DNA of 64,000 nt, from the NCBI GenBank assembly GCA_964448105.1, contig CAYUVK010000006.1, forward strand, positions 8,443 to 72,442. The letters run 5' to 3'. Made by a program: the position numbers and the translations under genes. This stretch comes from an uncultured Ignavibacteriaceae bacterium. Lineage in GTDB: Bacteria; Bacteroidota; Ignavibacteria; Ignavibacteriales; Ignavibacteriaceae. This document shows positions 44,382-59,077 of the stretch, piece by piece (the stretch's first letter is position 1; each line of letters starts with the position of its first letter). The notes under the pieces were generated by a model. The model saw only the letters and a program-made list of their open reading frames with translations. It was not told the origin of the DNA and searched no databases.

Positions 44382-44820
44382 TTATCAATTTGATTTCCAG
44401 TTCATTTATCCATGACATAATTTTTTCTTTTATTTGATCCCGGATAATTCGTGTACCAACTAATTTTTCTTCAAAGCTGCCATCAATTGCGGCAGGGTCA
44501 GGAAAACTCCAATGAAGTCTTTTGCATATTCCCGGGAATATTGGGCAGCGTTCGGCAGCTGTTTCATTACACACTGTAATTACATAGCGATACATCTTTC
44601 CCTGCTTAAAAAAATCGAATACACTCTTCGTTTTATTTTGTGAAATATCTATTCCATCTTCTTCCATAACTTCAACTGCAGCCGGATTCAAGATTCCTGG
44701 TTCGAGCCCTGCACTTTCAACTTCAAATTTATCCCCGCCATATTTTTTTAGATATGCTTCGGCTATTTGACTTCGTGCACTATTTTTTATACAAACGAAA
44801 AGAACTTTCATTTTATTCAT
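44365..44820 (-). CDS. arsC: LMW-PTP-fold arsenate reductase paralogue
   Basis: CX5R(S) P-loop CIKNSARS and a distal Cys pair CNETAAERC. Confidence 0.78.
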
Positions 44821-44828
44821 AATGTCTC

Positions 44829-45092
44829 TTAATTTTTTTTATGTTCCTCAGAAAGTTCATCCATCAGCCAATGTGTAAGTGTAGATTTTGTAGGCAATTT
44901 TCCGCTAAGTATTACTTTTCCATTTAACACCAATCCAGGTGTGCTCATTATTCCATATTTCATTATTTCTTTATAATCAGTTACTTTTTCAATTTCGGCG
45001 ATTAAGTTATTTTCAACAACAACTTCATTGCATAATTTTTCCAGGTTTTTACAATTGGTACAACCTGAACCTAATATTTTTATATTCAACAT
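44829..45092 (-). CDS. Small thioredoxin-fold protein (redox-active disulfide protein 2 type)
   Basis: 87 aa, with a CxxC in [11 protein letters not shown]. Confidence 0.8.
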
Positions 45093-45094
45093 TT

Positions 45095-45514
45095 TTATCT
45101 CCCTAAATTTTCCTGATAAAATTTGTAAAACTCACTTTTTATTTCATCTCTTATTTTTCTAAATACTGAAAGTATTTCTTCCTCAGTTCCAAATGCTTCA
45201 GCCGGATCTTCAAATCCTATATGTAATTGTTTCCCTACCTTACCGAGAAAAACCGGGCAGGTTTCTTTTGCATTGTCGCATACAGTAATTACATAATCAA
45301 AAGATTTATTTAAAAACTGCTCAATGTTTTTTGGAGCTTTTTTGCTTAAATCAATCCCTATCTCTTTCATTACTTTAATTGCTTTGGGATGAACTTGAGA
45401 TGATGGTTTAGTTCCGGCAGAAAAAACTTCAAGGTTAGGATCAAATGATTTAAGAAATCCTTCAGCCATCTGGCTGCGGCATGAATTACCTGTGCAAAGA
45501 ATTAAAACTTTCAA
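45095..45514 (-). CDS. arsC: Thioredoxin-coupled arsenate reductase (LMW-PTP family)
   Basis: P-loop CTGNSCRSQMAEG and a Cys pair CDNAKETC with Cys82/Cys89-type spacing. Confidence 0.88.
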   Translation of the reverse strand: MKVLILCTGNSCRSQMAEGFLKSFDPNLEVFSAGTKPSSQVHPKAIKVMKEIGIDLSKKAPKNIEQFLNKSFDYVITVCDNAKETCPVFLGKVGKQLHIGFEDPAEAFGTEEEILSVFRKIRDEIKSEFYKFYQENLGR

Positions 45515-45563
45515 TTGTGTTTCCTATATTTTGCCAAATATCGAAATGTTTTACAAAAAAATG

Positions 45564-45914
45564 TTACCTGCTGCATACTTCATTTCTATCCACTTTCTGA
45601 ATCTTCTGTTTATCGGAAATAATTAAATTATCATCCGATATCCAGAAATCAAGAGTTGATAGAACAGAAGAAATCCTTTGATCAAAAGGTTTTTGATTAA
45701 TCATATAATTAACCCATTTACCATCCTTTTCCTCAACAATAAATCCCGTATCTCTTAAAATGCTAAGATGTTTGGAAACCGTTGAAGTGGCTAAGTTAAG
45801 AACATCAGTAATTTCACAAACACATAACGATTTTGTCTGCAGCATCTTCAAAATCCTTAACCTGTTAGGATCAGAAAGGGCTTTAAATAATTTTGTGTTT
45901 TCTTTTAAATTCAT
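45564..45914 (-). CDS. arsR: ArsR/SmtB-family metalloregulator
   Basis: LCVCEITDVL metal-binding site followed by the HTH region LATSTVSKHLSILRDTGF. Confidence 0.9.
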   Translation of the reverse strand: MNLKENTKLFKALSDPNRLRILKMLQTKSLCVCEITDVLNLATSTVSKHLSILRDTGFIVEEKDGKWVNYMINQKPFDQRISSVLSTLDFWISDDNLIISDKQKIQKVDRNEVCSR

Positions 45915-46007: not shown

Positions 46008-47993
46008 TTATTTGAGGTAAACCATTTTCTTACTGTATATTTGACCGTTAAGATTTAAAACGTAAAAATAAATACCGCTGGCCGCTTGTGTACCAAGGTT
46101 TGTGGTTCCATCCCAGGAAGTCCTATTTTCCTTTTTAGGAGTAATACCGCTAAATAATACTTTTACTTTTTCACCAAGACTGTTATAGACTATTAATTTC
46201 GCTTCAGAATTTATTTCCGAGTTAAAAATTATAACTGTCCTATTATTAAACGGATTGGGATAATTTTGAGTCAAAACAAAATTTTGAGGCACATTTATAA
46301 TTTGTTTTACCGTATCTACACCGGTAATTTTAAAATTCCCATAAACAAATGAGTAATTAATATTTACAGGTTCTCTAAAAACATTACCGGTACTATCAGA
46401 ATAAGTAAAATAAAAATCTACTTTTGTTCCGGTTGTAAAAGTAGGCATAACGACATCATATTTTAATTTACCATCATAGTTCAAAGTTAAATGATTTATA
46501 TTCAAATCGGCTTCTGAATAATTAAGAACAACAGAGGAAGGATCTATTCTATCGTGGTCTAAAAATATTTTGTGTAATATATATTCACCATTAACATATT
46601 TAAAATTAGGATACGAAATTGCTCTTGATGCCGATACAAGACCATATCCCCTGTTGCTATCCGGAGTAAAAAAATTATCTGCAGTGGTTAATAATATATC
46701 CCTGGCTTGAACATTTGACAAATACGGCCAGGCAGACAATAATAATGCTGCGGTTCCCGCGGCTAAAGGTGCAGAATAAGAAGTTCCATCGCCTGTATTA
46801 TAGCCGGAAGGATCAAATAGATCGGCATGATAAACATTTACTCCCTGTGCAAGAATATCTGGTTTGATTCTTCCATCGTAGCTGGGGCCACGGCTGCTGA
46901 AATAGGCAACAACATTATTTTTATCGACAGCCCCGACAGCAATAGTATTTATACCATCAGCGGGAGCTATTATATAATGCCATGCTGTATGACCTTCATT
47001 ACCGGCAGAAGTTATTGTAAGTATCCCTCTTTGAAATGCTAACTCTGCAGCTTTTGTAACGATAGTAGTTTTACCGTCCATATCTTTATAAGTATAAGAA
47101 TATGTTGAATCATCGAATTCATTATATCCTAAAGAAGAACTTGTAATATCGACTCCTATAGAATCCATCCATATTAAAGCTCTTGCATAATTATCTTCCT
47201 CTACATGAGTTTCGCTTCTTTCGTCTTCTGTTTTTGCCAGGATATAGCTTGCATTGTAAGCTGGACCGATTATTTCGCCATCTTTATAACCGCCTATTAT
47301 TGAAAAGACTCCTGTTCCATGCGAGTCCTGCTTAGAGATATCGCCTGGTTGATTGGCTGTAACGCTATCATTGAATACAAAATCATATTCCGCAATTACC
47401 TTTCTAGCAGAAAGAGCTTCATGCACTTTCCATCTGAAACCGCTGTCTAGTAAACCAATAACAACACCTTCCCCGCTTAACCCTTTTGATTGAACTTTAG
47501 GAATATCGATAAGATTATCCTGACCGAATGATGGACCATAATTCAAACCATCAATAATAGCATTTTTGTAAAGTGAAGGTTTATTTATTTGGCTCTTGAC
47601 TCTTTTATAAATCAAAATCTTTACCGGTTCCACTTTTTGAACAAAAGAGAATTTTAAAACAGCGTTTTTCTGTTCGTCGCTTAAATATGCGGAAACTGCA
47701 TTAAACCATTTTAATTTATTTTCAATTTTAATTCCGGAATTTGATAATACTTTCAAATAATCTTTGCTAACAGGAATATCTTCATAAGTAATAAAATTAT
47801 TCCCCATACTTTTTCTTCTTCTCTCGATGCTTCTTTCAGATAGTGAATTTATTGCTTCTGTATAAAAAGGTGAAGCTTTATTGAGTATCTCAGTTTTTTG
47901 GATCCCCTTGTCTTTAAAGTAGATTAAATATTTTGTTTGAGAATAAGATATTGTAACAAATATCAATAGAAAAAGAATAACCAATTTTTTCAT
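46008..47993 (-). CDS. Secreted S8 (subtilisin-like) serine peptidase with a T9SS C-terminal sorting domain
   Basis: Catalytic triad contexts GLLDSGF, HGTGVFS and GTSYSAPL. C-terminal domain NYPNPFNNRTVIIF...GIYFYVLNLNGQ. Confidence 0.9.
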   Translation of the reverse strand: MKKLVILFLLIFVTISYSQTKYLIYFKDKGIQKTEILNKASPFYTEAINSLSERSIERRRKSMGNNFITYEDIPVSKDYLKVLSNSGIKIENKLKWFNAVSAYLSDEQKNAVLKFSFVQKVEPVKILIYKRVKSQINKPSLYKNAIIDGLNYGPSFGQDNLIDIPKVQSKGLSGEGVVIGLLDSGFRWKVHEALSARKVIAEYDFVFNDSVTANQPGDISKQDSHGTGVFSIIGGYKDGEIIGPAYNASYILAKTEDERSETHVEEDNYARALIWMDSIGVDITSSSLGYNEFDDSTYSYTYKDMDGKTTIVTKAAELAFQRGILTITSAGNEGHTAWHYIIAPADGINTIAVGAVDKNNVVAYFSSRGPSYDGRIKPDILAQGVNVYHADLFDPSGYNTGDGTSYSAPLAAGTAALLLSAWPYLSNVQARDILLTTADNFFTPDSNRGYGLVSASRAISYPNFKYVNGEYILHKIFLDHDRIDPSSVVLNYSEADLNINHLTLNYDGKLKYDVVMPTFTTGTKVDFYFTYSDSTGNVFREPVNINYSFVYGNFKITGVDTVKQIINVPQNFVLTQNYPNPFNNRTVIIFNSEINSEAKLIVYNSLGEKVKVLFSGITPKKENRTSWDGTTNLGTQAASGIYFYVLNLNGQIYSKKMVYLK

Positions 47994-49018: not shown

Positions 49019-50812
49019 TTATTCATCAATTTGAAGAACGGCTAGAAAAGCTTCCTGGGGTATTTCAACATTCCCCACCTGTTTCATTCTTTTCTTCCCT
49101 TCTTTTTGTTTTTCAAGAAGCTTTCTTTTACGCGTTATATCGCCGCCGTAACATTTTGCAAGCACATTTTTCCTTAATGCTTTCACTACAGATTTTGAAA
49201 TAACCTTTGTACCAATTGTAGCCTGGATGCTAATTTCAAACATTTGTCTGGGGATTAAATCTTTTAATTTGCTGCAGACTTTCCTTCCCCAATCATAAGC
49301 CTTGTTTTTATGAACAATCATCGATAAAGCATCTACTGGTTCACTGTTTAAAAGAATATCAAGCTTAACCAAATCCGATTCTTTATACCCGATATATTCA
49401 TAATCAAAAGAAGCATACCCGCGCGACATTGATTTAAGTTTATCGTAAAAATCAAAAATTATTTCCGACAGCGGCAATTCATATAGAAGATCTGCACGGG
49501 TTGGATCTAGATAAGATGTATTTTTATAAATACCTCTTTTTTCCATTGAAAGCTGCATTAAATTTCCGACATATTCACTCGGACATACAATCTGTGCTTT
49601 AACATAAGGTTCTTCGATTCGTTCGATATCACCGATTTCAGGCATCAAAGCAGGATTATCGACAATTATTTCTTCACCGTTCTTTCTATAAACGTGATAT
49701 TCAACGTTGGGAAGCGTGGTAATAATAGACTGATTATATTCTCGCAGAAGTCTTTCCTGGACAATTTCCATGTGGAGCAAACCTAAAAAACCGCATCTAA
49801 ATCCGAATCCTAAAGCAGCAGAAGTTTCAGGCAGGTAGCTAAGTGCTGAATCGTTTAGCCGAAATTTTTCCAATGCATCCCGCAGATCTTCAAAGTCTTC
49901 GGAGTTAGTCGGATAAAGTCCGCTGTAAACCATCGGTTTTACTTCTTTATATCCCGGTAAAGCTTTTTCAGCTTCATTATTTTTAAGTGTTACCGTGTCC
50001 CCCACTTTGGCATCATGAACATCTTTAATACCGGCAATTAAATAACCGACATTCCCTGCTGAAAGTTCATCTGCCTTTATTCTTCTTAAACCTAAAATTC
50101 CTATTTCTTCTGCTTCAAATTCTTTATTAATGGCAAAAAATTTTATTTTATCGTTTGTTTGAATTTTTCCGTTAAACAGCCTGATATAAGCAATTGCTCC
50201 CCTGTATGCATCAAAAATTGAATCAAAAATTAATGCTTGAAGCGGTGCATCGGGATCACCGGTTGGTGCAGGAATTCTTTTAACTATGTTTTCAAGAATT
50301 TCTATTATACCAATCTTTGCTTTTGCTGACGCCAAAAGAATTTCATCTTCTTTGCATCCTAATAAATCCATTATTTGCTTTTTAACTTTTTCAACTTCTG
50401 CACTAGGCAAATCAATTTTATTTATAACAGGAATAATTTCAAGTCCTGCATCAAAAGCAAGATATAAATTTGAAATGGTTTGTGCTTCAACTCCTTGCGC
50501 AGCATCGACTACTAGCAGAGCACCTTCGCAAGCTGCAAGTGAACGTGAGACTTCATAAGTAAAATCGACATGCCCGGGTGTATCAATTAAATTTAAAATA
50601 TATTCTATTCCATCATTTGCTTTATACTTCATCTGGATTGCATGTGATTTAATAGTAATACCTCGTTCTCTTTCAAGTTCAAGGTTATCTAAAAGCTGCG
50701 CCTTTGCTTCCCTTACCGATACTGTACCGGTATTTTCCAGCAGGCAATCAGCAATGGTAGATTTCCCGTGATCGATGTGTGCAACAATGCAAAAGTTTCT
50801 AATATTTATCAT
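49019..50812 (-). CDS. lepA: Elongation factor 4
   Basis: [17 protein letters not shown] and NKIDL G-motifs, with a LepA-specific C-terminal region. 597 aa. Confidence 0.97.
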
Positions 50813-50906
50813 TTATTGTCTTAATATTTAAATAATAAATATACTTACCATAAGAGAATATTAAAAGGGAATAAAAATATGAAAACAAAGAGAAAGGCAA
50901 CGAACT

Positions 50907-50980
50907 ATTTCGAATTTTGGATTTTGAATTTCGAATTTCAAAACAAATCCACAGTCCCCAATCCGAAATCCGAAATTTCA
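50907..50980. repeat. Low-complexity CGAAAT/GGATTT-type imperfect inverted repeat in the lepA / ATP-grasp divergent spacer
   Basis: ATTTCGAATTTTGGATTTTGAATTTCGAATTTC ... CCAATCCGAAATCCGAAATTTC. The halves are approximately reverse-complementary. Confidence 0.4.
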
Positions 50981-51048
50981 CTTCCTCCTTGCATGCAAGT
51001 TGAGATATTAATATTTTTTGAAACAAAATACATAATAAATATTTAGCA

Positions 51049-51966
51049 ATGGAATTTTTCGATTTAGGATTGGCATATGTCTGGGAATATGATGACGGCT
51101 TCCTTGAACTTATTGAAAGAACTCTACAGAGCGCCGGGATTACCACTTTCATTTTATCCTATCATAATTTTCCCGAAATACAGGAAAAAGTTGTTAATAG
51201 AAAATTAGGCTTCAATTTTTATCTTGATAGAGCGTGGGATGTAGATGAAGGTTTTGAAAAGCTCGGGCAAATCATCAATAGAAGAAAAACAATAATATTT
51301 AACCCGTATAAAAAAGTTTTGCATGCAATAGACAAAGCCAGCATGCACCTGGAATTTTTAACTGCCGGATTAAATGTACCTTATTCAATAATAATCCCGC
51401 CGCATAGTGAAATTGAAAACATAGTTATCACTATTGAAGAATTAGAAATTCTTGGAAGGCCTTTTATAATTAAACCTTGCAATACAACCGGCGGCGGTGT
51501 AGGCGTTGTAACAGGTGCCGAATCTCTCAGAGAAGTCCTTGATGAGCGATTAACCAATACAGATGATAAATATATTCTGCAGGAAAAAATTTATCCAAGG
51601 ATGCTGAATGGGAAAAGGGCCTGGTTTCGTTCCTTCTGGGCATTCGGCAAACCAATCCCTGTTTGGTGGGATGACCAGACTCATCTTTATGAAGAACTTA
51701 AACCAGAAGAAATTGAAATTTACGGGCTGAGAAAACTATTTAATATAACCAGACAAATTGCAAGAATTACCGGGCTTGATTTTTTCTCTACGGAAATAGT
51801 CCTTACTAATGATGATAGATTTATTGTTATAGATTATGTAAATGATCAATGTGATATGAGACTGAAATCTAAACATATGGACGGGGTTCCTGATTCGGTT
51901 GGTTATCAAATAGTAAAAAGTATGTTAAGAACTATCTTACGCGAAAAGAAAAAAGCTAAAATTTAA
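51049..51966 (+). CDS. ATP-grasp domain protein
   Basis: GRPFIIKPCNTTGGGVGVVTG (P-loop-like ATP-grasp segment) and ...ILQEKIYP...FFSTEIVL. Confidence 0.7.
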   Translation: MEFFDLGLAYVWEYDDGFLELIERTLQSAGITTFILSYHNFPEIQEKVVNRKLGFNFYLDRAWDVDEGFEKLGQIINRRKTIIFNPYKKVLHAIDKASMHLEFLTAGLNVPYSIIIPPHSEIENIVITIEELEILGRPFIIKPCNTTGGGVGVVTGAESLREVLDERLTNTDDKYILQEKIYPRMLNGKRAWFRSFWAFGKPIPVWWDDQTHLYEELKPEEIEIYGLRKLFNITRQIARITGLDFFSTEIVLTNDDRFIVIDYVNDQCDMRLKSKHMDGVPDSVGYQIVKSMLRTILREKKKAKI

Positions 51967-52054
51967 ACTATGTATTTTTTTCTATTTTATCGGAACTTGA
52001 AAAAATCGGTTGTTGAAGGATCCTTTTTTAGTAATTAAATACTATAACAATTAA

Positions 52055-52438
52055 ATGAGGAGAACCACTATTTATTTCATTGCCGGATCCTTAATAATTT
52101 TAGTTGTTATATTTTCATATCTATATATTTTCAACATTTATGAAATCACTTATTCGGTAAATCCTTCTTCGCTATACTCTGATAATGAATCAATGGTTAT
52201 TGTTACTTCCGATCCTATAAATGCTTTCGGGTGGAAAATACCTTTTAGAAATGCTTATGCCGAGTTTAATATAAAGGAAGGAAAAGATTTGATTGATATT
52301 TTATCCGAAGACAATAAGAAAGGGATTTTAAAGTTAAAAGTAAAAAACAAAACCGGTACAGTTGTTGTTTATATTAAATCGAAATATGCACTGCTTCCCT
52401 CTGAAGTTGTAATTCATATTTATCCGAATGTAGCTTGA
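52055..52438 (+). CDS. Membrane-anchored hypothetical protein
   Basis: N-terminal TM helix. No recognisable motifs. Confidence 0.45.
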   Translation: MRRTTIYFIAGSLIILVVIFSYLYIFNIYEITYSVNPSSLYSDNESMVIVTSDPINAFGWKIPFRNAYAEFNIKEGKDLIDILSEDNKKGILKLKVKNKTGTVVVYIKSKYALLPSEVVIHIYPNVA

Positions 52439-52553
52439 AATACCTCCGAACAAAAGAATGGAGTAACGAACTTTTAGTAAAACTCTTTTAATAAATATGA
52501 CATATTAAATAATTATTGTTATTTTTGTTTTAGTGAATTCATTATGAAATTTT

Positions 52554-53333
52554 ATGATAAGAATTAAAACTCTACTTCCCTTCATATTGTTTTTTTCCAC
52601 TTCAATTAATTTGGCACAGGGAACTGCCGGAGATAATGCAAAATATGAATACAGGTATTTAATCGATATGCCTACTGCTGGAATTTTAGAAAAAGGTTAT
52701 GTCGGCTTTACAAATGATGTTCTCCCGGATGGTGTTTTAATCTCAAAGCTTGAAGTTGGTGCATTTGATAATGTTAGCTTTGGAATATCATATGGCGGAG
52801 CAAACGTAATTGGCGCAGGAACTCCAAGATGGTATAAATTACCAGGTGTAAATATTCGTTTTAGATTATTTAATGAATCTATCGCTCTCCCTGCAATAAC
52901 TTTGGGATTCGATTCTCAAGGGAAAGGAGAATATTTCGATTCTCTTGGAAGATATGCCGTAAAATCTCCCGGTTTTTTCGGTGCCGTTAGCAAAAACTTT
53001 GCTTTTTTAGGTTATTTAAGTATACACGGCTGTGCCAACTATTCATTAGAAACAAAAGATGGCGATAATTTTATTGATTTGTATGCCGGATTTGAAAAAA
53101 CATTGGGACCTCATTTTTCTATAATTGGAGAATATAATTTTGCTTTTAATGATAATGCAGCAAAAAGCTTTGGAAACGGAAATGGATATCTGAATATGGG
53201 TTTAAGATGGTCCTTAGGGGATGGATTTACTTTTGGTTTTGATTTAAGAGATTTGCTGGATAATAAGAAAATAAATCCAACTGTTGCAGATAGAGCAATT
53301 AGAATTGAGTATATTAAAAATATTTTCAAATAA
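52554..53333 (+). CDS. Exported hypothetical protein, probably a small outer-membrane beta-barrel
   Basis: Signal peptide, alternating aromatic/Gly-rich strands, and a terminus close to the OMP type. Confidence 0.5.
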   Translation: MIRIKTLLPFILFFSTSINLAQGTAGDNAKYEYRYLIDMPTAGILEKGYVGFTNDVLPDGVLISKLEVGAFDNVSFGISYGGANVIGAGTPRWYKLPGVNIRFRLFNESIALPAITLGFDSQGKGEYFDSLGRYAVKSPGFFGAVSKNFAFLGYLSIHGCANYSLETKDGDNFIDLYAGFEKTLGPHFSIIGEYNFAFNDNAAKSFGNGNGYLNMGLRWSLGDGFTFGFDLRDLLDNKKINPTVADRAIRIEYIKNIFK

Positions 53334-53506
53334 ATGCGTTTTTTAGCTTTTCCATCCTTGTATTCAAACCTATACAAATAAGTTCACTATTTTATACAAA
53401 ATAAGTGGTGATTCACTATACTTATTAATAAATGAGATTAATTTCACACTTTCATTAGGAACGATTTTTGCCAATATTTGTAAAAGTATTCTTGTGGAGG
53501 TTAGAA

Positions 53507-54505
53507 ATGAAATTCTATAAATTTTATATATTCTTAGTAGTTCTGGTTTCGGCGGTTTTCTTAGGCGGCTGTTACACACAAGTCGCAATGAGAGAATACC
53601 CGAACAGGGATTACAATCATGATTATAATAATAATTATAACTACGATGATTCGACTTATTCTGACGATTCATCCTATTATGATGACTCTACTTATTACGG
53701 GAATGATTATTACGATAATACCCCTTCAATAAATAATTACTATTATGGATTCGGATATCCATATGGACATAGATACTACTGGAATTATTACCCATCCTAT
53801 TCATTTGGTATTACTTTTGGAAGTTATTATGATCCTTTCTACTGGGATCCATGGGAATGGTGCTACACCCCTTATACATGGAATTCATGGTGGTATTCAC
53901 CCTATGGTATTTATTATCCATACTATTATTCCCCGTATTCTTATGGTGGTTATTATGGGGGATATTATGGAGGACACCACAGTTATTATGGCGGAGGTAA
54001 ATATTATAAAGAAAGAACACGCGGTTCTTCTACTGTAAGAAATAATATAGGCTTAAGAAATAATGATCGTGGTCGTGTGCTCACTTCAGGAAGCAGAAAC
54101 GGCAGCAGATTAGAAAAAAGTAATTCAGGAAATCGAACAAGAAATACTAATATTAACAGACCTTCAAGAACCAATTCCACAAATACTAACAGAGAATACA
54201 GAAGAGAAAGAGTTACTAGGGAAAACCGCTCGCATTCGGTACAAAGAAATAACACTAATAGAAGAAATGAAAGTAATGTAAGAAGGAGTTCCGGCGAAAG
54301 AAGATCAAGGGAATCAAGCTCATACCAGCCAAGATCAAGAAGCGGTAACAATAATTCATATCATCCGCCACAGCGGTCATATTCCCCGCCGCGAAGTTCA
54401 TCTCCGCCTTCAAGGTCTTATTCGCCTCCCAGCAGATCATCTTCACCAAGAGGCAGTGATGGCGGTGGAAGAAGCAGCGGCGGATCTTCCGGTAGAAGAA
54501 GATAA
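53507..54505 (+). CDS. Lipoprotein with an extreme Tyr/Asp/Trp-rich half and an Arg/Ser/Asn/Pro-rich half
   Basis: Lipobox FLGGC. Roughly 45 Tyr in the first ~165 mature residues (hand count). The tail contains SYSPPRSSSPPSRSYSPPSRSSSPRG...GRRR. I prefer the ATG at 53507, after GGAGG. Confidence 0.7.
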   Translation: MKFYKFYIFLVVLVSAVFLGGCYTQVAMREYPNRDYNHDYNNNYNYDDSTYSDDSSYYDDSTYYGNDYYDNTPSINNYYYGFGYPYGHRYYWNYYPSYSFGITFGSYYDPFYWDPWEWCYTPYTWNSWWYSPYGIYYPYYYSPYSYGGYYGGYYGGHHSYYGGGKYYKERTRGSSTVRNNIGLRNNDRGRVLTSGSRNGSRLEKSNSGNRTRNTNINRPSRTNSTNTNREYRRERVTRENRSHSVQRNNTNRRNESNVRRSSGERRSRESSSYQPRSRSGNNNSYHPPQRSYSPPRSSSPPSRSYSPPSRSSSPRGSDGGGRSSGGSSGRRR

Positions 54506-54520
54506 TGGAGATAACACAAA

Positions 54521-55057
54521 ATGAAAAAAAATATATTAAAATTAATTTTAATAATAACAGTGGTAATTTCTTTCGGCGGCTGTTATACAATCTTATGGTC
54601 GCCTGATGAACAATTACCATCTGGAAATAATAGTTCTGAAAATTCTGAAAACATTGATCAAATCTATTATTCCGAACCTTTTTATGGTGATTACAATTAT
54701 TATTATGGTCATCCATGGTGGATAACCAGACATCCAATGTATTTGCCTCCAACTCAAAATGAAAATGTAGATAAAGGTAACGGTGTAAATACAATCAGAG
54801 ATAACAACACTATTAGAAACAATAACGGCACAAGAAACACAACGGATAATAATAGGCCGATAATTAATACCGGGCCTCCGGTAAAAAGCAGCAGTAACAA
54901 TAACAATGACAGCTCCGGCTCAGTATCCAAAACAAGTTCAAATAATAACAACAATTCGGGTGAAAAAACAAGAGCATCCGAGGGTTCAAGAACAAATGAT
55001 GATAATTCCGCTCGAAATAATAACGGAAGCAGAAATTCAGGAAACGGGAGGAAATGA
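54521..55057 (+). CDS. Paralogous low-complexity lipoprotein (Tyr-rich patch, then Asn/Ser/Arg-rich tail)
   Basis: Lipobox SFGGC followed by CYT, as in the upstream gene. It contains YYSEPFYGDYNYYYGHPWW, then an N/S/R-rich tail. Confidence 0.7.
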   Translation: MKKNILKLILIITVVISFGGCYTILWSPDEQLPSGNNSSENSENIDQIYYSEPFYGDYNYYYGHPWWITRHPMYLPPTQNENVDKGNGVNTIRDNNTIRNNNGTRNTTDNNRPIINTGPPVKSSSNNNNDSSGSVSKTSSNNNNNSGEKTRASEGSRTNDDNSARNNNGSRNSGNGRK

Positions 55058-56520
55058 TGTATAAAAACTTTTGTTCCAATTGCAGCAAAGTTTTTGCTTT
55101 TTTACTTATTTGCAGTTCATTTGCATATCCACAGGGTATTCCTGATGCATTGAGACTTGGAGAAAGTGGATTAGGTGCTAATGCAAGAGCCCTAGGTATG
55201 GGGAATGCTTATATCGGATTAAGCGATGATGCATCTGCTGCCTATTATAACCCGGCAGGATTAGGCTTATTAAAAAGATTAGAATTCTCAGGTGGAATCG
55301 ATTACTCAACTTATAATAATAATACAACCTTCTTTAATAATACATCAGATTACTCCAACAGTACAACGAGATTGGATAGATTAAGCTTTGCCTTTCCATT
55401 TCCAACTGTTAGGGGAAGTTTAGTGTTTGGGATCTCTTATCATAATACTAAAGATTTTACGGGTGCTTTAAAATTCGATGGATTTAACAATGGGAATAAT
55501 TCTTTAATTCAAGTTTTAAATGAAGCTACCTATTATGATAATAATGGAAATCCGTATAACATCCCTTATGATCTCGGGCTTAACGATTCAAACCTGGTTA
55601 CACCAATAAACGGTCATCTTAATCAAAGCGGTACTGTTTTAAATTCGGGTTCTACCAATAATTGGACTTTCTCGGGTGCTATTGAAGCAGCTCAAAATCT
55701 ATTTCTCGGTTTAAACTTAAACATAATTACCGGCAGCTATAATTCGAATAATGATTATTATGAAGATGATACTCAAAATTATTATCAAGGTGCAATCGCA
55801 ACCGGTGAATCATCACCGCCAATAGATTTTCAGACCTTTAATTTAAATAGAGTATTAAATTGGGATATCTCAGGTTGGAGTGCAAAGGCCGGGTTGATGT
55901 ATCAGTTTAACAATTACGGGAGATTCGGTTTAACAGTCCAGTTCCCAAAATATTATACTGTAAAAGAAACCTTTACCGTAAACGGAACAAGTTACTTTGC
56001 CAATGCTCAATATAATTTGAATCAGCAGGATTACAGTGATAACGTAAAATACGATATTGTTTCCCCCTTTGAATTTGGAGCAGGTTTTTCGATAAATTAC
56101 AAAGGATTTATTTTTAGTGGAGAAGGAACTGCAATTGATTACTCACAATTAAAATTTGATAATCCCGATGGAATTAGCGCACAGGATGTTGGTACTATAA
56201 ATAAGGATATTAAAGATCAGCTTGGTGCAGTAATAAATTACAATGTTGGTGTTGAATATACAATCCCTGAAGTTGGTTTAAGATTAAGGACCGGTTATTT
56301 TGTTCAACCTTCTGCTTACAAAGGTGATCCTTCCAGCTTCAATAAGAAATATTTTACTGCCGGAATCGGTATTTTAGCACAAGAAACTTTAGGACTGGAT
56401 CTTGCATGGGCTCACGGTTGGTGGAGTACAATCGGAGACAATTACGCTTCGAATGAATCAAGAACTTACCAGGATATTAAATACGACAAAATAATGCTGA
56501 CTGCTACTTACAGATTCTAA
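55054..56520 (+). CDS. Outer-membrane beta-barrel protein (FadL / PorV-like family)
   Basis: Signal peptide, LGANARALGMGNAYIGLSDDASAAYYNPAGLG, and a C-terminal ...TATYRF. Its start overlaps the upstream stop (ATGA). Confidence 0.75.
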   Translation: MMYKNFCSNCSKVFAFLLICSSFAYPQGIPDALRLGESGLGANARALGMGNAYIGLSDDASAAYYNPAGLGLLKRLEFSGGIDYSTYNNNTTFFNNTSDYSNSTTRLDRLSFAFPFPTVRGSLVFGISYHNTKDFTGALKFDGFNNGNNSLIQVLNEATYYDNNGNPYNIPYDLGLNDSNLVTPINGHLNQSGTVLNSGSTNNWTFSGAIEAAQNLFLGLNLNIITGSYNSNNDYYEDDTQNYYQGAIATGESSPPIDFQTFNLNRVLNWDISGWSAKAGLMYQFNNYGRFGLTVQFPKYYTVKETFTVNGTSYFANAQYNLNQQDYSDNVKYDIVSPFEFGAGFSINYKGFIFSGEGTAIDYSQLKFDNPDGISAQDVGTINKDIKDQLGAVINYNVGVEYTIPEVGLRLRTGYFVQPSAYKGDPSSFNKKYFTAGIGILAQETLGLDLAWAHGWWSTIGDNYASNESRTYQDIKYDKIMLTATYRF

Positions 56521-56549
56521 AATGAATCTTTTATTGATTTATAATTTTG

Positions 56550-56580
56550 AGCGCTATATTTTTTATGTAGCGCTTTTTTA
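56550..56580 (+). terminator. Rho-independent terminator
   Basis: AGCGCTA-loop-TAGCGCT followed by TTTTTTA, located 30 bp after the barrel gene stop. Confidence 0.65.
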
Positions 56581-56648
56581 TTTTCCTGGGAGGTTGTATT
56601 AAAGGAATTGTCTGCAGAATTGAAAGTAAAGATTACTATATTTTTAAT

Positions 56649-57554
56649 TTGGATAATTTTAATTTGATAAGGTGTTCTTTAAAAGGAAAATTTAAAAAAG
56701 AATTTAATCTAAAAAAGGATAAGTTATATAAAACCGATATTGCAGTGGTTGGCGATTTTGTAAATTATGAATTGAATGATGACGGTACCGGTGTAATTGA
56801 TGAGATTAAAAAAAGAGAAAATTATCTATCAAGGAAAGCCCCTAAAATTAAAGGTGCAAGTTATAGAGGCGAAAGACTGGAACAAATTGTCGCATCCAAT
56901 ATTGATAATCTATTTATTATAAGCAGTGCTCTTGAACCAGCTTTCAACAATAAAGTTATCGATAGATTTTTGGTTGCCGGTGAGAGTTCTCACGTTCCCA
57001 TAACCATAATTATTAATAAAATCGATTTGGACCGGGATAATTTGATTGATTCATGGGTTAATTTATACAAACAAATCGGATATGAAACTATAAGAACCAG
57101 TGCAGTTACCGGAGAAGGGATTGGAACCGTTAAAGACTTATTACTTAATAAAAAAACTTTGTTTTGGGGACAATCAGGTGTTGGGAAATCATCAATATTT
57201 AATAAAATTTTCCCGGGATTGGATTTAAATGTTGGCGAAATAAGTACTTATAGCGATAAAGGTAAACATACAACCGTAACGACAAATATGATAAAAGTTG
57301 AAGAAAATACATTTGTAATTGACACCCCGGGAATTCGTGAGATTGCTCCTTACGGAATAAAAAAAAAAGACCTGGGGCATTACTTTCTAGATTTTACTGA
57401 TTATATTTACGATTGCCGTTTCAATACTTGCACACATCAACATGAACCGGGCTGTGCGGTTATTGGGGCTGTAAAAAATAATTATATTTCCAAATATAGA
57501 TATGAAAGTTATTTAAGAATTTTAGAAACAATTGAAGAAGATATAATTTTTTAA
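56649..57554 (+). CDS. rsgA: Ribosome small-subunit-dependent GTPase A (the true start is probably upstream, see findings)
   Basis: GQSGVGKSS, DTPGIRE and the zinc knuckle CRFNTCTHQHEPGC. Confidence 0.9.
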   Translation: MDNFNLIRCSLKGKFKKEFNLKKDKLYKTDIAVVGDFVNYELNDDGTGVIDEIKKRENYLSRKAPKIKGASYRGERLEQIVASNIDNLFIISSALEPAFNNKVIDRFLVAGESSHVPITIIINKIDLDRDNLIDSWVNLYKQIGYETIRTSAVTGEGIGTVKDLLLNKKTLFWGQSGVGKSSIFNKIFPGLDLNVGEISTYSDKGKHTTVTTNMIKVEENTFVIDTPGIREIAPYGIKKKDLGHYFLDFTDYIYDCRFNTCTHQHEPGCAVIGAVKNNYISKYRYESYLRILETIEEDIIF

Positions 57555-57661
57555 CCTATCTTATAAAATTGATCAGCGTCAAATACATCTTTGCAAATAC
57601 CTAATAAAATTGTAAACTTTTTTAATAAAAATTATATTTCATTTTTAATTTATAATGTGTA

Positions 57662-59077
57662 ATGGAAGATTTCAATAATTCTGCTGTAAATTCATTTACT
57701 GACTTTCTCATTCAAAATAAATCAAGTCTGAAAGAATCCAAACTGAACAACCCGGTAGTTAGTTTTGCTGTAAAAAATAACAGTATCGATTTGAAGGATA
57801 AAATTGATTACCTAATAAAATATTACGAAAAATCGTTTTATTTCGAAAAACCTGAAGATAATTTTCTTATACTGGCAATAGACGAAATAATTTCAATTTC
57901 GGAAAACGGGGATAAACGTTTTGCTGCAACAGATAAAAAGGTAAAGGAATTAAAAAATAATTTTATTAACAACTGGGAGAATATCCAGCTGGAAAACAAA
58001 CCTTTATTTGTTGGAGGTATGAAATTTAACGTTGAACATCAGGACGAAGATTGGAAAGATTTTAGCGATTCGATATGGTTAATCCCGGAATTAATGGTTG
58101 TTAAAAGTAAGGGAGATACTTTTATCTTTTTTAATTTTATATACAGTCCCAATTCATCTATTGAGAATTTGATTGAGAAATTCAAAAGTAAATTGGAAAA
58201 TCTAATTAAACCGCCCGAAGCAAAAAATTCTGATATCGTAAAAATTAATAAACTGACGGGCGCTTCACCGAAAGACAAAAAAAAGTGGAAAAATTTAGTT
58301 AACGAATGCCTTGAAAATATCTTTAATAATAAAGTTAATAAAATTGTGGTTTCAAGAAGAATAGAACTTCTGCTTTCGGGTGAAGTTAATCTTAATCATG
58401 TTATAAATCATTTTAAATCAAAATATCCTGAATGTTATTTATTTATATTTCACAGAGGCAAATCTTCTTTTCTAGGAGCAACACCTGAGCGACTTGTAAA
58501 GTTTTGTGATGGTTCAATAAAAATTGAAGCTCTTGCCGGTTCTGCGCCGAGAGGTACTACAAATGATGAGGATATTAAATTAGAAAAAAATCTTTTGAAA
58601 AGTGAAAAAGACATTCACGAACATGATTTTGTTGTTAATCATATTAAGGATTCTATTACCCCGTTAGTTGAAGGATTAACAATCGAAAAAGAACATTCAA
58701 TAAAAAAATTAAAAAATATTCAACACATTAGTACATCAATTTCTGCAAGAATGAATTCTCAAAATTCACCGTTAAATTTAATTAAAGAACTATTCCCTAC
58801 CCCAGCAGTCTGCGGGATACCGAAAGAAGTATCTTTAAACCTCATTAAAAAAATGGAAAATTATTACCGGGGCTTATATTCAGGAATTATAGGATGGTTC
58901 AATTTTGATGATGAAGGAGAATTTGCCGTTGCCATAAGATCGGCATTAACTTACGGAAATAAATTAATTGCGTTTGCCGGAAGCGGAATTGTTGAAAAGT
59001 CAGATCCCGATCTTGAATATGAAGAAACCGAATTAAAATTTAAACCAATACTATCTTTATTTAATGAAAATCAATAG
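57662..59077 (+). CDS. menF: Isochorismate synthase
   Basis: GATPERLV and FPTPAVCG chorismate-binding motifs, in men gene context. Confidence 0.88.
   Translation: MEDFNNSAVNSFTDFLIQNKSSLKESKLNNPVVSFAVKNNSIDLKDKIDYLIKYYEKSFYFEKPEDNFLILAIDEIISISENGDKRFAATDKKVKELKNNFINNWENIQLENKPLFVGGMKFNVEHQDEDWKDFSDSIWLIPELMVVKSKGDTFIFFNFIYSPNSSIENLIEKFKSKLENLIKPPEAKNSDIVKINKLTGASPKDKKKWKNLVNECLENIFNNKVNKIVVSRRIELLLSGEVNLNHVINHFKSKYPECYLFIFHRGKSSFLGATPERLVKFCDGSIKIEALAGSAPRGTTNDEDIKLEKNLLKSEKDIHEHDFVVNHIKDSITPLVEGLTIEKEHSIKKLKNIQHISTSISARMNSQNSPLNLIKELFPTPAVCGIPKEVSLNLIKKMENYYRGLYSGIIGWFNFDDEGEFAVAIRSALTYGNKLIAFAGSGIVEKSDPDLEYEETELKFKPILSLFNENQ

What the first reader, a model, noticed from the sequence alone, without database searches (positions are those of the whole stretch)
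53507..56520. Operon of two extreme low-complexity lipoproteins (Tyr/Trp/Asp-rich head, Arg/Ser/Asn/Pro-rich tail) with a FadL/PorV-like outer-membrane barrel
Seen: both small genes encode a lipobox followed by CYT (FLGGCYT, SFGGCYT).

The first mature protein has roughly 45 Tyr in ~165 residues (YYDDSTYYGNDYY, YYPYYYSPYSYGGYYGGYYGG) plus W-rich patches (FYWDPWEWCYTPYTWNSWWYSPY). It then switches to ~165 residues of R/S/N with SPP repeats (SYSPPRSSSPPSRSYSPPSRSSSPRG...GGSSGRRR), which resembles eukaryotic RS domains. The second is a shorter version (YYSEPFYGDYNYYYGHPWW, then an N/S/R/T-rich tail).

The barrel gene start overlaps the second gene stop (ATGA), and the unit ends in a clean terminator. 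Another small putative barrel gene (52554-53333) lies just upstream.

Inference: I know of no characterised bacterial family like this. Possibilities include the following:
- A surface-exposed lipoprotein pair exported through or anchored to the barrel.
- An adhesive or cross-linkable (dityrosine) matrix protein.
- A polyanion (eDNA, polyphosphate or mineral) binder via the cationic tail.
- A phase-separating envelope scaffold.

All of these functional ideas are speculative.
Basis: partly seen in the sequence, partly recalled or inferred. Interest (0 to 1): 0.65.

Follow-up and report, generated by a model that had tools for sequence, protein, structure and literature searches.

The report
Disordered Tyr/Arg lipoproteins with FadL-like barrel
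Ignavibacteria carry a conserved, uncharacterised outer-membrane gene set in which one or two lipid-anchored, fully disordered proteins (a tyrosine-rich half followed by an arginine-rich half) are always encoded next to a FadL/BamG-type barrel and a second small barrel; what it does is unknown.

Summary
LP1 (53507-54505) and LP2 (54521-55057) are real lipoprotein genes. Each has a Shine-Dalgarno site, a lipobox and dN/dS of 0.11-0.16. Their reading frames are kept in about 100 Ignavibacteria loci. The LP1 head has 45 Tyr in 146 residues (net charge -10); the tail has 37 Arg in 165 residues (net +29). AlphaFold2 predicts the whole mature LP1 to be disordered.

The barrel (55054-56520) is a FadL-superfamily 14-stranded OMP. 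Its best structural match is Bacteroidota BamG, but it scores below the BamG and PorV family cut-offs and lacks the BamG C-terminal tail.

The conserved core is the upstream small barrel (52554-53333, weakly YjbH/GfcD-N-like), LP1 and the barrel. This core survives down to 31% barrel identity and in a GC-rich relative. LP2 is a dispensable short paralogue of LP1.

The most conserved parts of the lipoproteins are the peptides just after the lipidated Cys (CYTQ[LV]A and CYT[IV]xWxP). Other local lipoproteins lack them.

Best reading (inferred, confidence about 0.35): these peptides dock in the barrel as BamH docks in BamG, and the barrel holds a sticky, polyanion-binding disordered chain on the envelope. 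No characterised family matches LP1 or LP2. Function is untested.

The parts
52554..53333 (+). OMP259: secreted 259-aa protein, probably a small outer-membrane beta-barrel. It is the first gene of the conserved core.
   Evidence: It has a signal peptide ending ...NLA|QG. It is very conserved, with dN/dS 0.04 and 1300 homologues, the top 120 at 68% identity or more. It lies upstream of LP1 in 72 of 74 loci with enough sequence, including the distant loci L027 and L029. There is a sub-threshold Pfam YjbH match to the N-terminal part of that model (18.1 bits against a cut-off of 24). 23 of 30 homologues match, best E 1.6e-5. The fold was not modelled here.
53507..54505 (+). LP1: 332-aa lipoprotein precursor. 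The mature protein of 311 aa is predicted to be entirely disordered.
   Evidence: Shine-Dalgarno GGAGG and ATG. Lipobox FLGG|C with the Cys codon at 53570. 138 homologues, of which 105 of the 120 listed carry CYT[QES]. dN/dS is 0.12-0.16. AlphaFold2 with 51 sequences gives mean pLDDT 47, and only the signal helix is confident.
53570..54007 (+). LP1 head: the motif CYTQVAMRE after the Cys, then an acidic D/N/Y stretch, then a Tyr/Trp/Pro/Gly core.
   Evidence: 45 Tyr and 7 Trp in 146 aa, net charge -10. Conserved motifs are CYTQ[LV]A, NNYY, YYPS..G..G.YYDP.YWDP and YYGGYY. dN/dS of the signal peptide plus head is 0.07-0.08 where synonymous change was not saturated.
54008..54502 (+). LP1 tail: Arg/Ser/Asn-rich basic block with the motifs RNNxGxR and (R)SYSPP and a C-terminal GRRR.
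   Evidence: 37 Arg, 38 Ser and 22 Asn in 165 aa, net charge +29. The motifs and the dibasic C-terminus are conserved across homologues, including L027, L029, L096 and L074. dN/dS is 0.20-0.30.
54521..55057 (+). LP2: 178-aa lipoprotein precursor, a short paralogue of LP1.
   Evidence: GGAG lies upstream. Lipobox SFGG|C with the Cys codon at 54581. Motifs are CYT[IV]xW[ST]P, YYG.Y..YY..PWW, two copies of RN..G.R, and C-terminal GRR/GRK. There are 120 representative clusters among 1.84 billion proteins, nearly all 150-185 aa and aligned end to end. dN/dS is 0.11-0.15. It is absent from L027 and L029 and degenerate in L074.
55054..56520 (+). FadL-superfamily 14-stranded outer-membrane barrel, BamG-like in fold.
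   Evidence: Pfam Toluene_X scores above the gathering cut-off. NCBIfam BamG scores 62 bits (cut-off 250) and PorV_fam 53 bits (cut-off 90). The AlphaFold2 model has pLDDT 82 and pTM 0.81. The best Foldseek match is B. thetaiotaomicron BamG 9hiv_F, E 5.7e-17. TM-scores are 0.63-0.67 to BamG chains and 0.57-0.63 (most 0.57-0.61) to E. coli FadL chains. dN/dS is 0.04. There are 1334 homologues, the top 120 at 58% identity or more. N66 and P67 of the hatch NPA motif are invariant.
56549..56575 (+). Terminator-like hairpin that closes the unit.
   Evidence: An 11-bp stem with 4 G-C pairs and a 5-nt loop, followed by TTTTATTTTC. rsgA starts at 56649.

Best explanation
This is a conserved outer-membrane module of the class Ignavibacteria. 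Its core has three parts:
- a small secreted barrel-like protein (OMP259);
- one intrinsically disordered lipoprotein (LP1, plus its short paralogue LP2 in Ignavibacteriales);
- a 14-stranded barrel with the FadL/BamG fold.

Shown here: the genes are real, selected, co-inherited and tightly coupled. The lipoproteins are disordered block co-polymers laid out as lipid anchor, invariant short peptide, acidic Tyr/Trp-rich block, Arg/Ser/Asn-rich block, dibasic C-terminus. The barrel belongs to the FadL superfamily and is closest in fold to BamG.

Inferred: the invariant peptides directly after the lipidated Cys (CYTQ[LV]A in LP1, CYT[IV]xWxP in LP2) are docking elements that the barrel clamps. [quoted passage not shown]

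Inferred: the barrel, perhaps through its FadL-type lateral opening and with help from OMP259, thereby positions the lipid-anchored chain. The chain most likely ends up on the cell surface.

Inferred: the Tyr-rich and Arg-rich blocks then give a cohesive layer that binds polyanions or surfaces. The chemistry would be Tyr-Arg 'sticker' interactions, as in FUS-type low-complexity domains and mussel foot proteins.
For: Real genes:
- Shine-Dalgarno sites and an ATGA start/stop overlap.
- dN/dS of 0.11-0.16 for LP1 and LP2, against 0.04 for both barrels.
- Homologues of conserved length, aligned end to end.

Co-inheritance:
- The order OMP259-LP1-LP2-barrel is found in 22 genome loci.
- In the pooled loci, LP2 is present in 85 of 94, LP1 in 72 of 77 and OMP259 in 72 of 74. 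The misses that were inspected are motif variants, a frameshift or a remnant.
- The core OMP259-LP1-barrel persists with different flanking genes in Melioribacteraceae (L027). It also persists in the relative L029, where barrel identity is 31% and the LP1 tail uses GC-rich-codon residues Ala/Gly/Thr instead of Asn. L029 LP1 keeps the same block architecture, CYTQLA, YDPWY.WD.W, PSYSPP and a basic C-terminus. The composition is therefore selected and is not a by-product of an AT-rich genome.

Docking idea:
- The CYT peptides are the most conserved part of otherwise fast-evolving chains.
- Other lipoproteins in these loci start CSS, CAT or CST.

Precedent for a FadL-like barrel paired with a lipoprotein whose conserved N-terminus the barrel holds:
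- BamG-BamH, including bamG2-bamH2 in one operon (PMC12611786, PMC12578637).
- BamG is the best structural match of this barrel.

Disorder: the LP1 AlphaFold2 model has pLDDT below 50 throughout the mature chain.

Block charges are conserved in 111 homologues. The head averages net -9 with 26% Tyr. The tail averages net +24 with 16% Arg.
Against: - No interaction was modelled or measured. Co-folding was not possible with these tools.
- Neither lipoprotein meets the Bacteroidota rule for a surface-export signal, which is at least two acidic residues among the six after the Cys (PMC12578637). LP1 has YTQVAM and LP2 has YTILWS. By that rule they would face the periplasm.
- FadL barrels are plugged by a hatch. 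This one keeps the hatch NPA motif, so threading a polypeptide through it is not obviously possible.
- LP1 and LP2 show no sequence similarity to BamH or to any other BAM chain in the PDB.
- There is no evidence of expression at the protein level.
- The synteny extends to housekeeping neighbours (rsgA and the men genes), so part of the linkage could be inertia of a stable region. The changed flanks in L027 and L029 argue against that for the core.
Confidence: 0.35

Rival explanations
1. Periplasmic tether or spacer. LP1 and LP2 are ordinary Lol-sorted lipoproteins of the inner leaflet of the outer membrane. Their long disordered chains span the periplasm. The Arg-rich tail and dibasic C-terminus bind peptidoglycan or anionic inner-membrane lipids non-covalently. 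The barrels are neighbours or regulators, not exporters.
For: There are no acidic residues in the six positions after the Cys, so the Bacteroidota surface-export rule is not met (sequence; rule from PMC12578637). The chain is long and disordered. The strongly basic tail and the conserved C-terminal RR/RK/RRR would suit binding to anionic envelope polymers.
Against: A periplasmic lipoprotein needs no dedicated barrel. Yet LP1 stays between two outer-membrane protein genes across deep divergence and changed flanks. The LP2 stop overlaps the barrel start. The C-terminal residue is Lys in only a minority of sequences, so covalent attachment in the manner of Braun's lipoprotein is not conserved.
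Confidence: 0.2
2. Accessory proteins of a true FadL-type importer. The barrel takes up a hydrophobic or aromatic substrate by lateral diffusion. The aromatic-rich lipoproteins capture or concentrate that substrate at the membrane. This would resemble the surface lipoprotein VolA, which is co-transcribed with a FadL homologue in Vibrio cholerae.
For: The barrel passes the Pfam FadL gathering score and keeps the invariant hatch residues N66 and P67. It matches FadL, TodX and TbuX structures at E 1e-13 to 1e-14. A lipoprotein-FadL operon has a precedent in PMC3656444. The Tyr/Trp-rich heads could bind hydrophobic ligands (inference).
Against: There are no catabolic, fad or aromatic-degradation genes in the conserved neighbourhood. 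The lipoproteins have no enzyme domain and no fold. A basic tail of 150-200 aa has no obvious role in lipid uptake. Co-opting FadL-fold barrels for protein partners (PorV, BamG) is a theme of the FCB superphylum (Fibrobacterota-Chlorobiota-Bacteroidota) to which Ignavibacteria belong.
Confidence: 0.15
3. BAM accessory module. The barrel is the Ignavibacteria counterpart of BamG and binds BamA. LP1 and LP2 are lineage-specific lipoprotein subunits that take the place of BamH-K.
For: BamG gives the best NCBIfam match and the best structural match. The barrel is extremely conserved, with dN/dS 0.04 and the top 120 homologues at 58% identity or more, and it sits among housekeeping genes (lepA, rsgA). 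Liu et al. list the BamG and BamH of Ignavibacterium album as adjacent genes, IALB_1455 and IALB_1454. That is the same barrel-next-to-lipoprotein layout.
Against: The BamG model scores 62 bits against an equivalog cut-off of 250. The barrel ends in ...TYRF at the last strand and lacks the C-terminal extension described for BamG. LP1 and LP2 have no similarity to BamH-K, BamM or BamP chains in the PDB and are predicted disordered, whereas BamH is a folded two-domain protein. I could not map the IALB locus tags onto this locus.
Confidence: 0.15
4. Spurious ORFs. The two 'lipoprotein' frames are accidental open frames in low-complexity, AT-rich DNA.
For: Several overlapping alternative-frame ORFs are open across the same DNA, for example 53745-54038 (+) and 54004-54351 (-). 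This is typical of low-complexity sequence.
Against: The frame, the lipobox, the motifs and the length are conserved in about 100 loci. dN/dS is 0.11-0.16 in the annotated frames. Shine-Dalgarno sites are present. The architecture is kept in a GC-rich relative. Genes were called for LP1 and LP2 in independent assemblies.
Confidence: 0.01

Closest known systems
BamG-BamH of the Bacteroidota BAM complex, and the bamG2-bamH2 operon pair
   Same: A 14-stranded FadL-fold barrel is paired with a lipoprotein whose highly conserved N-terminal tail, directly after the lipidated Cys, is held by the barrel. The pair can be encoded in one operon and belongs to the same FCB superphylum (Fibrobacterota-Chlorobiota-Bacteroidota) (PMC12611786, PMC12578637). 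BamG is the best structural match of this barrel.
   Different: The barrel scores far below the BamG equivalog cut-off and lacks the C-terminal tail. BamH is a folded, crescent-shaped scaffold with an acidic export signal. LP1 and LP2 are fully disordered, have no acidic signal and show no sequence similarity to BamH. No link to BamA has been shown.
FadL/TodX/TbuX hydrophobic-compound channels (Pfam PF03349), including the VolA-FadL operon of Vibrio cholerae
   Same: The barrel passes the family gathering score, keeps the hatch NPA residues and has the same 14-stranded fold. VolA shows that a lipoprotein can be co-transcribed with a FadL homologue (PMC3656444).
   Different: Sequence identity to the solved FadL structures is about 12-14%. 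The partner lipoproteins are not enzymes. No fatty-acid or aromatic catabolism genes are linked.
PorV/PorQ (type IX secretion shuttle and attachment barrels)
   Same: They belong to the FadL superfamily, occur in FCB bacteria and bind protein cargo. The N-terminal and C-terminal regions of this barrel match PorV models weakly. The organism has type IX secretion cargo (subtilase at 46008-47993).
   Different: The barrel scores below the PorV_fam cut-off (53 against 90 bits). PorV is not among the top 50 structural matches. LP1 and LP2 have no type IX C-terminal sorting domain. No type IX secretion genes are adjacent.
GfcD/YjbH with GfcA/YjbE (group 4 capsule and yjbEFGH operons)
   Same: OMP259 is about the size of the N-terminal 12-stranded barrel of GfcD (residues 19-278) and matches that part of the Pfam YjbH model weakly. 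Those operons also combine outer-membrane barrels, a lipoprotein and a small low-complexity secreted protein. GfcA is Thr-rich. [quoted passage not shown]
   Different: The similarity is below threshold. A direct profile comparison with E. coli GfcD gives only 1.4 bits. OMP259 is a single domain. The second barrel here has the FadL fold and is not a GfcD C-terminal barrel. The polymer would be a polypeptide, not a polysaccharide. No capsule genes are linked.
Lipoproteins with disordered, basic, polyanion-binding regions (NHBA of Neisseria; the RcsF linker threaded through OMPs)
   Same: NHBA is a surface lipoprotein with a disordered N-terminal region and an Arg-rich stretch that binds heparin (PMC6104945 abstract). 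RcsF is a precedent for a lipoprotein whose disordered linker passes through a barrel lumen (from my own knowledge, not checked here).
   Different: Both have a folded functional domain. LP1 and LP2 have none. There is no sequence similarity.
Tyr/Arg-rich low-complexity materials (FUS-type prion-like plus RGG domains; mussel foot protein 3)
   Same: The composition is similar: Tyr, Gly, Asn, Arg, Trp and Pro, with Tyr-rich and Arg-rich segments that in those systems drive coacervation and adhesion. This comparison is from my own knowledge and is compositional only.
   Different: These are eukaryotic, unrelated in sequence and not lipidated. Phase separation or adhesion by LP1 or LP2 is untested.

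Membership tests
FadL/Toluene_X outer-membrane transport proteins (PF03349) | Score at or above the Pfam gathering threshold | tested here: met
   34.2 bits against a cut-off of 29.7, E 1.3e-8. Most close homologues carry PF03349 in the precomputed annotation.
FadL/Toluene_X outer-membrane transport proteins (PF03349) | 14-stranded beta-barrel with an N-terminal hatch that carries the conserved NPA motif | tested here: met
   The AlphaFold2 model (pLDDT 82) matches FadL, TodX and TbuX at E 1e-13 to 1e-14. N66 and P67 are invariant and A68 is at least 90% conserved. The hatch itself is modelled with low confidence (pLDDT 49-55 for residues 41-70).
FadL/Toluene_X outer-membrane transport proteins (PF03349) | Uptake of hydrophobic substrates through a lateral opening | not testable with these tools
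   This needs transport assays or a structure with ligand bound.
BamG (NCBIfam NF053685, equivalog) | Score at or above the curated cut-off | tested here: not met
   62.2 bits against a cut-off of 250. Only profile positions 122-361 of 397 are matched.
BamG (NCBIfam NF053685, equivalog) | Conserved C-terminal extension beyond the last strand, which contacts BamD | tested here: not met
   The feature is described in PMC12611786 and PMC12578637. This protein ends ...LTATYRF, and the last strand spans 472-487 of 488 residues.
BamG (NCBIfam NF053685, equivalog) | Conserved N-terminal extension of about 10-12 residues threaded through the lateral opening | tested here: inconclusive
   The mature N-terminus (Q27) lies 39 residues before the NPA motif. 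By my recollection of the FadL sequence that is about 7 residues longer than in E. coli FadL. The region is highly conserved but modelled at low confidence.
BamG (NCBIfam NF053685, equivalog) | Physical association with BamA; essentiality | not testable with these tools
   This needs pull-down and depletion experiments. I could not establish orthology to the listed I. album BamG, IALB_1455.
BamH (surface lipoprotein partner of BamG) | Homology to BamH and a folded two-domain scaffold | tested here: not met
   LP2 has no PDB sequence match, and LP1 has none to BamH or any other BAM chain (its only matches, E 0.008 to 1.7, are to unrelated eukaryotic proteins), although BAM complexes with BamH are in the PDB. 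LP1 is predicted to be fully disordered. There is no NCBIfam or Pfam hit.
PorV/PorQ (NCBIfam NF033709) | Score at or above the cut-off, and a type IX secretion context | tested here: not met
   53.1 bits against a cut-off of 90. A profile search of the PDB finds PorV only at E 0.047. PorV is not in the top 50 Foldseek matches. There are no type IX secretion genes next to the barrel, and LP1 and LP2 lack a C-terminal sorting domain.
Bacterial lipoproteins (Lgt/LspA substrates) | N-terminal signal peptide with a basic n-region, a hydrophobic core and a lipobox ending in Cys | tested here: met
   LP1 has MKFYKF-YIFLVVLVSAVF-LGG|C. LP2 has MKKNILK-LILIITVVIS-FGG|C. The Cys position and the lipobox are conserved in homologues. 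No dedicated predictor such as SignalP or LipoP was available.
Bacteroidota-type surface-exposed lipoproteins | Lipoprotein export signal: at least two acidic residues among the six after the Cys | tested here: not met
   The rule is as stated in PMC12578637. LP1 has YTQVAM and LP2 has YTILWS, with no acidic residues. The first acidic residue is at the 8th position after the Cys in LP1 and at the 8th-9th in LP2. Whether the rule holds in Ignavibacteria is unknown.
YjbH/GfcD (PF06082), for OMP259 | Score at or above the Pfam gathering threshold; two-barrel architecture of about 700 aa | tested here: not met
   The window protein scores 18.1 bits against a cut-off of 24. 23 of 30 homologues match at E 0.01 or better, best 1.6e-5, and only to profile positions 10-108 of 658. 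OMP259 is a single domain of 259 aa. A direct profile comparison with E. coli GfcD gives 1.4 bits. I treat this as a remote lead to the N-terminal barrel of GfcD.
Braun's lipoprotein (Lpp)-type covalent tether between outer membrane and peptidoglycan | Conserved C-terminal Lys for L,D-transpeptidase linkage (feature from my own knowledge) | tested here: not met
   The C-terminal residue is Arg in most LP1 and LP2 homologues. Among LP2 homologues, GRR occurs 31 times and GRK 16 times. LP1 homologues mostly end in RRR, RR or GR.

The most novel reading that the evidence does not exclude
LP1 and LP2 are a lipid-anchored, intrinsically disordered protein coat. The partner barrel with the FadL fold, helped by OMP259, exports the hydrophilic unfolded chain and releases its acyl anchor sideways through the lateral opening into the outer leaflet.

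This would be a dedicated route for surface-lipoprotein export that does not use the export signal. It would be a protein analogue of lipid-anchored capsule export. Its product would form a Tyr/Arg coacervate-like adhesive or polyanion-binding layer on the cell.
Probability: 0.15. Interest if true: 0.85.

Novelty: new variant of a known kind. Interest (0 to 1): 0.6.

Why it matters
How bacteria of the Fibrobacterota-Chlorobiota-Bacteroidota (FCB) superphylum place lipoproteins on or in the outer membrane is still largely unknown. The recent BAM structures showed that FadL-fold barrels there have been co-opted to hold lipoprotein N-termini. This module would be a second, independent case of that design. 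It is a simple one: one barrel, one small barrel, and a cargo with no fold at all.

The module is present across a whole class that is abundant in sediments, sludge and anammox granules.

The lipoproteins are among the most extreme Tyr/Arg block co-polymers I know of in bacteria. If they self-associate or bind DNA, polyphosphate, minerals or peptidoglycan, they would be a new kind of envelope material and a tractable bacterial model of Tyr-Arg 'sticker' chemistry.

If the module is instead a lineage-specific BAM accessory or a periplasmic tether, it still fills an unannotated, highly conserved slot in Ignavibacteria envelopes.

Tried and rejected
Family and structure searches on LP1 and LP2 found nothing.
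- Pfam, NCBIfam and PADLOC gave no hits for LP1 or LP2, nor did Pfam for ten LP1 homologues.
- PDB sequence searches with LP2 and with an LP1 profile returned only chance low-complexity matches.
- Rfam found nothing above noise over 50800-57700.

Searches on the barrel and its neighbours added little.
- The barrel sequence against PDB sequences gave nothing.
- The barrel profile against PDB sequences found only PorV, at E 0.047.
- The OMP259 sequence and profile gave nothing against the PDB.
- A profile-profile comparison of OMP259 with the barrel showed no relation.
- The ATP-grasp protein and TM127 gave nothing useful against the PDB.

I tried several ways to decide whether the barrel is the I. 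album BamG (IALB_1455) listed by Liu et al. All failed.
- The exact window protein is not on record.
- Cluster look-ups of I. album-like proteins returned no type-strain accession or locus tag.
- The I. album genome paper gives no locus tags for the men genes, and no supplement is held.
- No paper mentions IALB_1453-1458.
- The methods for homologue assignment are not in the text of the Nature paper.

The metagenome scan returned only close relatives (53-80% identity). It extended the co-occurrence statistics but not the phyletic range.

Ideas considered and dropped:
- a T9SS cargo or PorV pair, because there is no sorting domain and the score is below the cut-off;
- an Lpp-like covalent tether, because the C-terminal Lys is not conserved;
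- ATP-grasp modification of the lipoproteins, because the ATP-grasp gene is absent where the core persists;
- repeat-driven spurious ORFs;
- AT-bias as the cause of the composition.

Full report
**What is in the window**

Between lepA (49019-50812, minus strand) and rsgA (56649-57554) lie six genes on the plus strand:
- an ATP-grasp-like gene, 51049-51966;
- a 127-aa membrane-anchored protein (TM127), 52055-52438;
- a secreted 259-aa protein (OMP259), 52554-53333;
- LP1, 53507-54505;
- LP2, 54521-55057;
- a 488-aa barrel, 55054-56520.

A hairpin followed by a T run at 56549-56575 closes the set.

LP1, LP2 and the barrel form a tight operon.
- GGAGG precedes the LP1 ATG.
- Only 15 bases, containing a GGAG, separate LP1 from LP2.
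- The LP2 stop overlaps the barrel start as ATGA, behind GGGAGG.

The mechanical ORF list starts LP1 at TTG 53468. The ATG at 53507 is the better start. It gives a canonical lipoprotein signal peptide and matches the homologues.

**Check of the observation**

- The mature LP1 head (146 aa) has 45 Tyr and 7 Trp, with net charge -10.
- The LP1 tail (165 aa) has 37 Arg, 38 Ser, 22 Asn and 11 Pro, with net charge +29. It ends in SYSPP-type repeats and GRRR.
- Aliphatic residues make up only 5% of mature LP1.
- Twelve other proteins of the window average 4.1% Tyr and 3.8% Arg.
- LP2 has the same plan at half the size.
- There are no long DNA tandem repeats.

**The genes are real**

- LP1 has 138 detectable homologues. 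Of the 120 listed, 105 carry CYT[QES] right after a lipobox.
- LP2 has 120 representative clusters among 1.84 billion proteins. Nearly all are 150-185 aa and align end to end. 98 have C-Y-T-x-x-W, 110 have PWW, and most end in GRR or GRK.
- Against four relatives at 60-75% protein identity, dN/dS is 0.12-0.16 for LP1. The LP1 head (with signal peptide) gives 0.07-0.08 in the two comparisons where dS was not saturated, and the tail gives 0.20-0.30.
- dN/dS is 0.11-0.15 for LP2 and 0.04 for each barrel.
- The overlapping alternative-frame ORFs are by-products of low complexity.

**The family is more than a composition**

LP1 has conserved motifs in fixed order:
- CYTQ[LV]A..[DE];
- NNYY;
- P.Y.RY..YYPS..G..G.YYDP.YWDP;
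- YYP.YY.PY.Y.YYGGYY;
- RNN.G.R;
- (R)SYSPP repeats;
- a C-terminal SSGRRR.

LP2 shares CYT, the YYG.Y..YY..PWW core, the RN..G.R motif (twice) and the dibasic end. It is therefore a short paralogue of LP1.

In 111 LP1 homologues the head averages 144 aa, net charge -9 and 26% Tyr. The tail averages 190 aa, net charge +24 and 16% Arg.

A distant relative (L029) has a barrel only 31% identical. Its LP1 tail uses Ala, Gly and Thr (residues with GC-rich codons) in place of Asn, but it keeps the plan:
- CYTQLA;
- an acidic stretch;
- a Trp/Tyr core (YDPWY.WD.W);
- a basic Ser/Arg/Thr tail;
- PSYSPP;
- a basic C-terminus.

The architecture is therefore selected. It is not a by-product of AT-rich codons.

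AlphaFold2 with 51 sequences gives pLDDT below 50 for the whole mature chain. LP1 is best described as an intrinsically disordered lipoprotein.

**The barrel**

- It passes the Pfam FadL gathering score.
- NCBIfam's best matches are BamG (62 bits, cut-off 250) and PorV_fam (53 bits, cut-off 90), both below threshold.
- The AlphaFold2 model (pLDDT 82, pTM 0.81) is a long-stranded barrel with a poorly defined hatch.
- Foldseek ranks B. thetaiotaomicron BamG first (E 5.7e-17).
- TM-scores normalised by target length are 0.63-0.67 to the three BamG structures and mostly 0.57-0.61 (up to 0.63) to E. coli FadL chains.
- PorV is not among the top 50 matches.
- The barrel keeps the hatch NPA residues.
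- It ends in a canonical ...TYRF without the C-terminal tail described for BamG.
- It is far more conserved than the lipoproteins.

**The conserved unit**

In all 20 genome loci that extend far enough upstream, the order is ATP-grasp, TM127, OMP259, LP1, LP2, barrel. rsgA and menF usually follow.

After adding 80 metagenome loci and the loci fetched for individual LP1 homologues:
- LP2 is found upstream of the barrel in 85 of 94 loci;
- LP1 is found in 72 of 77;
- OMP259 is found in 72 of 74.

The misses I inspected are a motif variant (L096, CYTIIM), an LP2 remnant (L074) and an LP1 split into two ORFs, probably by a frameshift (L007).

In Melioribacteraceae (L027) and in L029 only OMP259, LP1 and the barrel remain, and they sit between different neighbours. 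The core is therefore OMP259-LP1-barrel. LP2, the ATP-grasp gene and TM127 are lineage-specific additions.

OMP259 matches the N-terminal part of the Pfam YjbH model below threshold. 23 of 30 homologues match, best E 1.6e-5. That part of the model corresponds to the N-terminal 12-stranded barrel of GfcD (residues 19-278; PMC11494523). A direct profile comparison with E. coli GfcD is almost silent. This is a lead only.

**How it most likely works**

The strongest clue is where conservation sits in LP1 and LP2. It sits in the few residues directly after the lipidated Cys. Other lipoproteins in the same loci start CSS, CAT or CST, so CYT is a private signature of this family.

[quoted passage not shown] BamG is a FadL-fold barrel. 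A paralogous bamG2-bamH2 pair is encoded in one operon.

By analogy I propose that the barrel clamps the N-terminal lipopeptides of LP1 and LP2. The rest of each chain would then be presented as a disordered two-block polymer.

A dedicated barrel, and possibly OMP259, would be unnecessary for a plain periplasmic lipoprotein. I therefore lean towards surface display, perhaps using the FadL-type lateral opening to release the anchor. That part is inference, and one tested feature speaks against it: neither protein has the acidic export signal of Bacteroidota surface lipoproteins.

The Tyr-rich and Arg-rich blocks suggest self-association and binding to polyanions or surfaces. This is a compositional analogy and is untested.

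**Rivals**

- A periplasmic tether that uses the basic tail.
- Accessory proteins of a genuine FadL importer, with VolA-FadL as the precedent.
- A lineage-specific BAM accessory module.

The BAM reading is kept alive by Supplementary Table 1 of Liu et al. It lists the BamG and BamH of Ignavibacterium album as adjacent genes, IALB_1455 and IALB_1454. I could not map those tags to this locus.

BamH is a folded protein. LP1 and LP2 show no similarity to any BAM chain in the PDB. I therefore think a separate locus is more likely. One BLAST search would settle it.

**Novelty**

No Pfam, NCBIfam or PDB entry describes LP1 or LP2, and no paper found in my literature searches does either. The design of a barrel with a partner lipoprotein is known. 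This cargo, and the pairing with a second small barrel, are not. I rate it a new variant of a known kind. It is of moderate to high interest and its function is unproven.

Noticed in passing
window 51049-51966 (+) and 52055-52438 (+): A divergent ATP-grasp-like protein (RimK family at only 22 bits) and a 127-aa membrane-anchored protein lie upstream of the module in every Ignavibacteriales locus that extends far enough upstream. Their start and stop overlap in L022, L023 and L096. Both are absent where only the core persists (L027, L029). Their function and any link to the module are unknown.
   Followed up: partly
window 3925-4494 (-) and 21112-21681 (-): Two nearly identical 189-aa membrane-anchored cytochrome c genes (Pfam Cytochrome_CBB3). 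The second lies next to a P-type ATPase with a His-rich N-terminus (19031-21094). This looks like a duplicated unit.
   Followed up: partly
window 43284-45914 (-): An arsenic-resistance-like cluster: an ArsR-family regulator (45564-45914), two low-molecular-weight phosphatase/ArsC-like genes (45095-45514 and 44365-44820) and an Acr3/SBF-type permease (43284-44381).
   Followed up: partly
window 46008-47993 (-): A subtilase carrying a type IX secretion C-terminal sorting domain (CHU_C / Por_Secre_tail). The organism therefore has a T9SS, and presumably a genuine PorV elsewhere.
   Followed up: partly
L023 1608-5424, L028 1-3538, L027 10492-12942: A gene trio of a TPR protein of about 600 aa, DUF4292 and Peptidase_M23 lies beside the module in several Ignavibacteria. 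It is not next to it in the window, where lepA is the neighbour.
   Followed up: no
L074 3975-4187; L007 4398-5476: In L074, LP2 is reduced to a 70-aa remnant that keeps only the C-terminal RNNN...GKGR motif. In L007, LP1 is split into two ORFs, through either a frameshift or an assembly error. LP2 therefore appears to be dispensable.
   Followed up: partly
window 53507-54505 (LP1 head): D-S-T, which fits the Bacteroidota general O-glycosylation motif D-[ST]-[AILVMT] (motif recalled from my own knowledge), occurs twice in the acidic part of the LP1 head. At least one such motif is present in 80 of 120 LP1 homologues.
   Followed up: no
window 53745-54038 (+), 54004-54351 (-), 54255-54794 (-): Long alternative-frame ORFs are open across LP1 and LP2. 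They are consistent with by-products of the low-complexity coding sequence, not genes.
   Followed up: partly
window 55054-56520 and 52554-53333: In both secreted barrel proteins the predicted signal-peptide cleavage site is followed by Gln (AYPQ|G or AYP|QG in the barrel, NLA|QG in OMP259). This fits the Gln-after-cleavage habit reported for Bacteroidota exported proteins (from my own knowledge).
   Followed up: no
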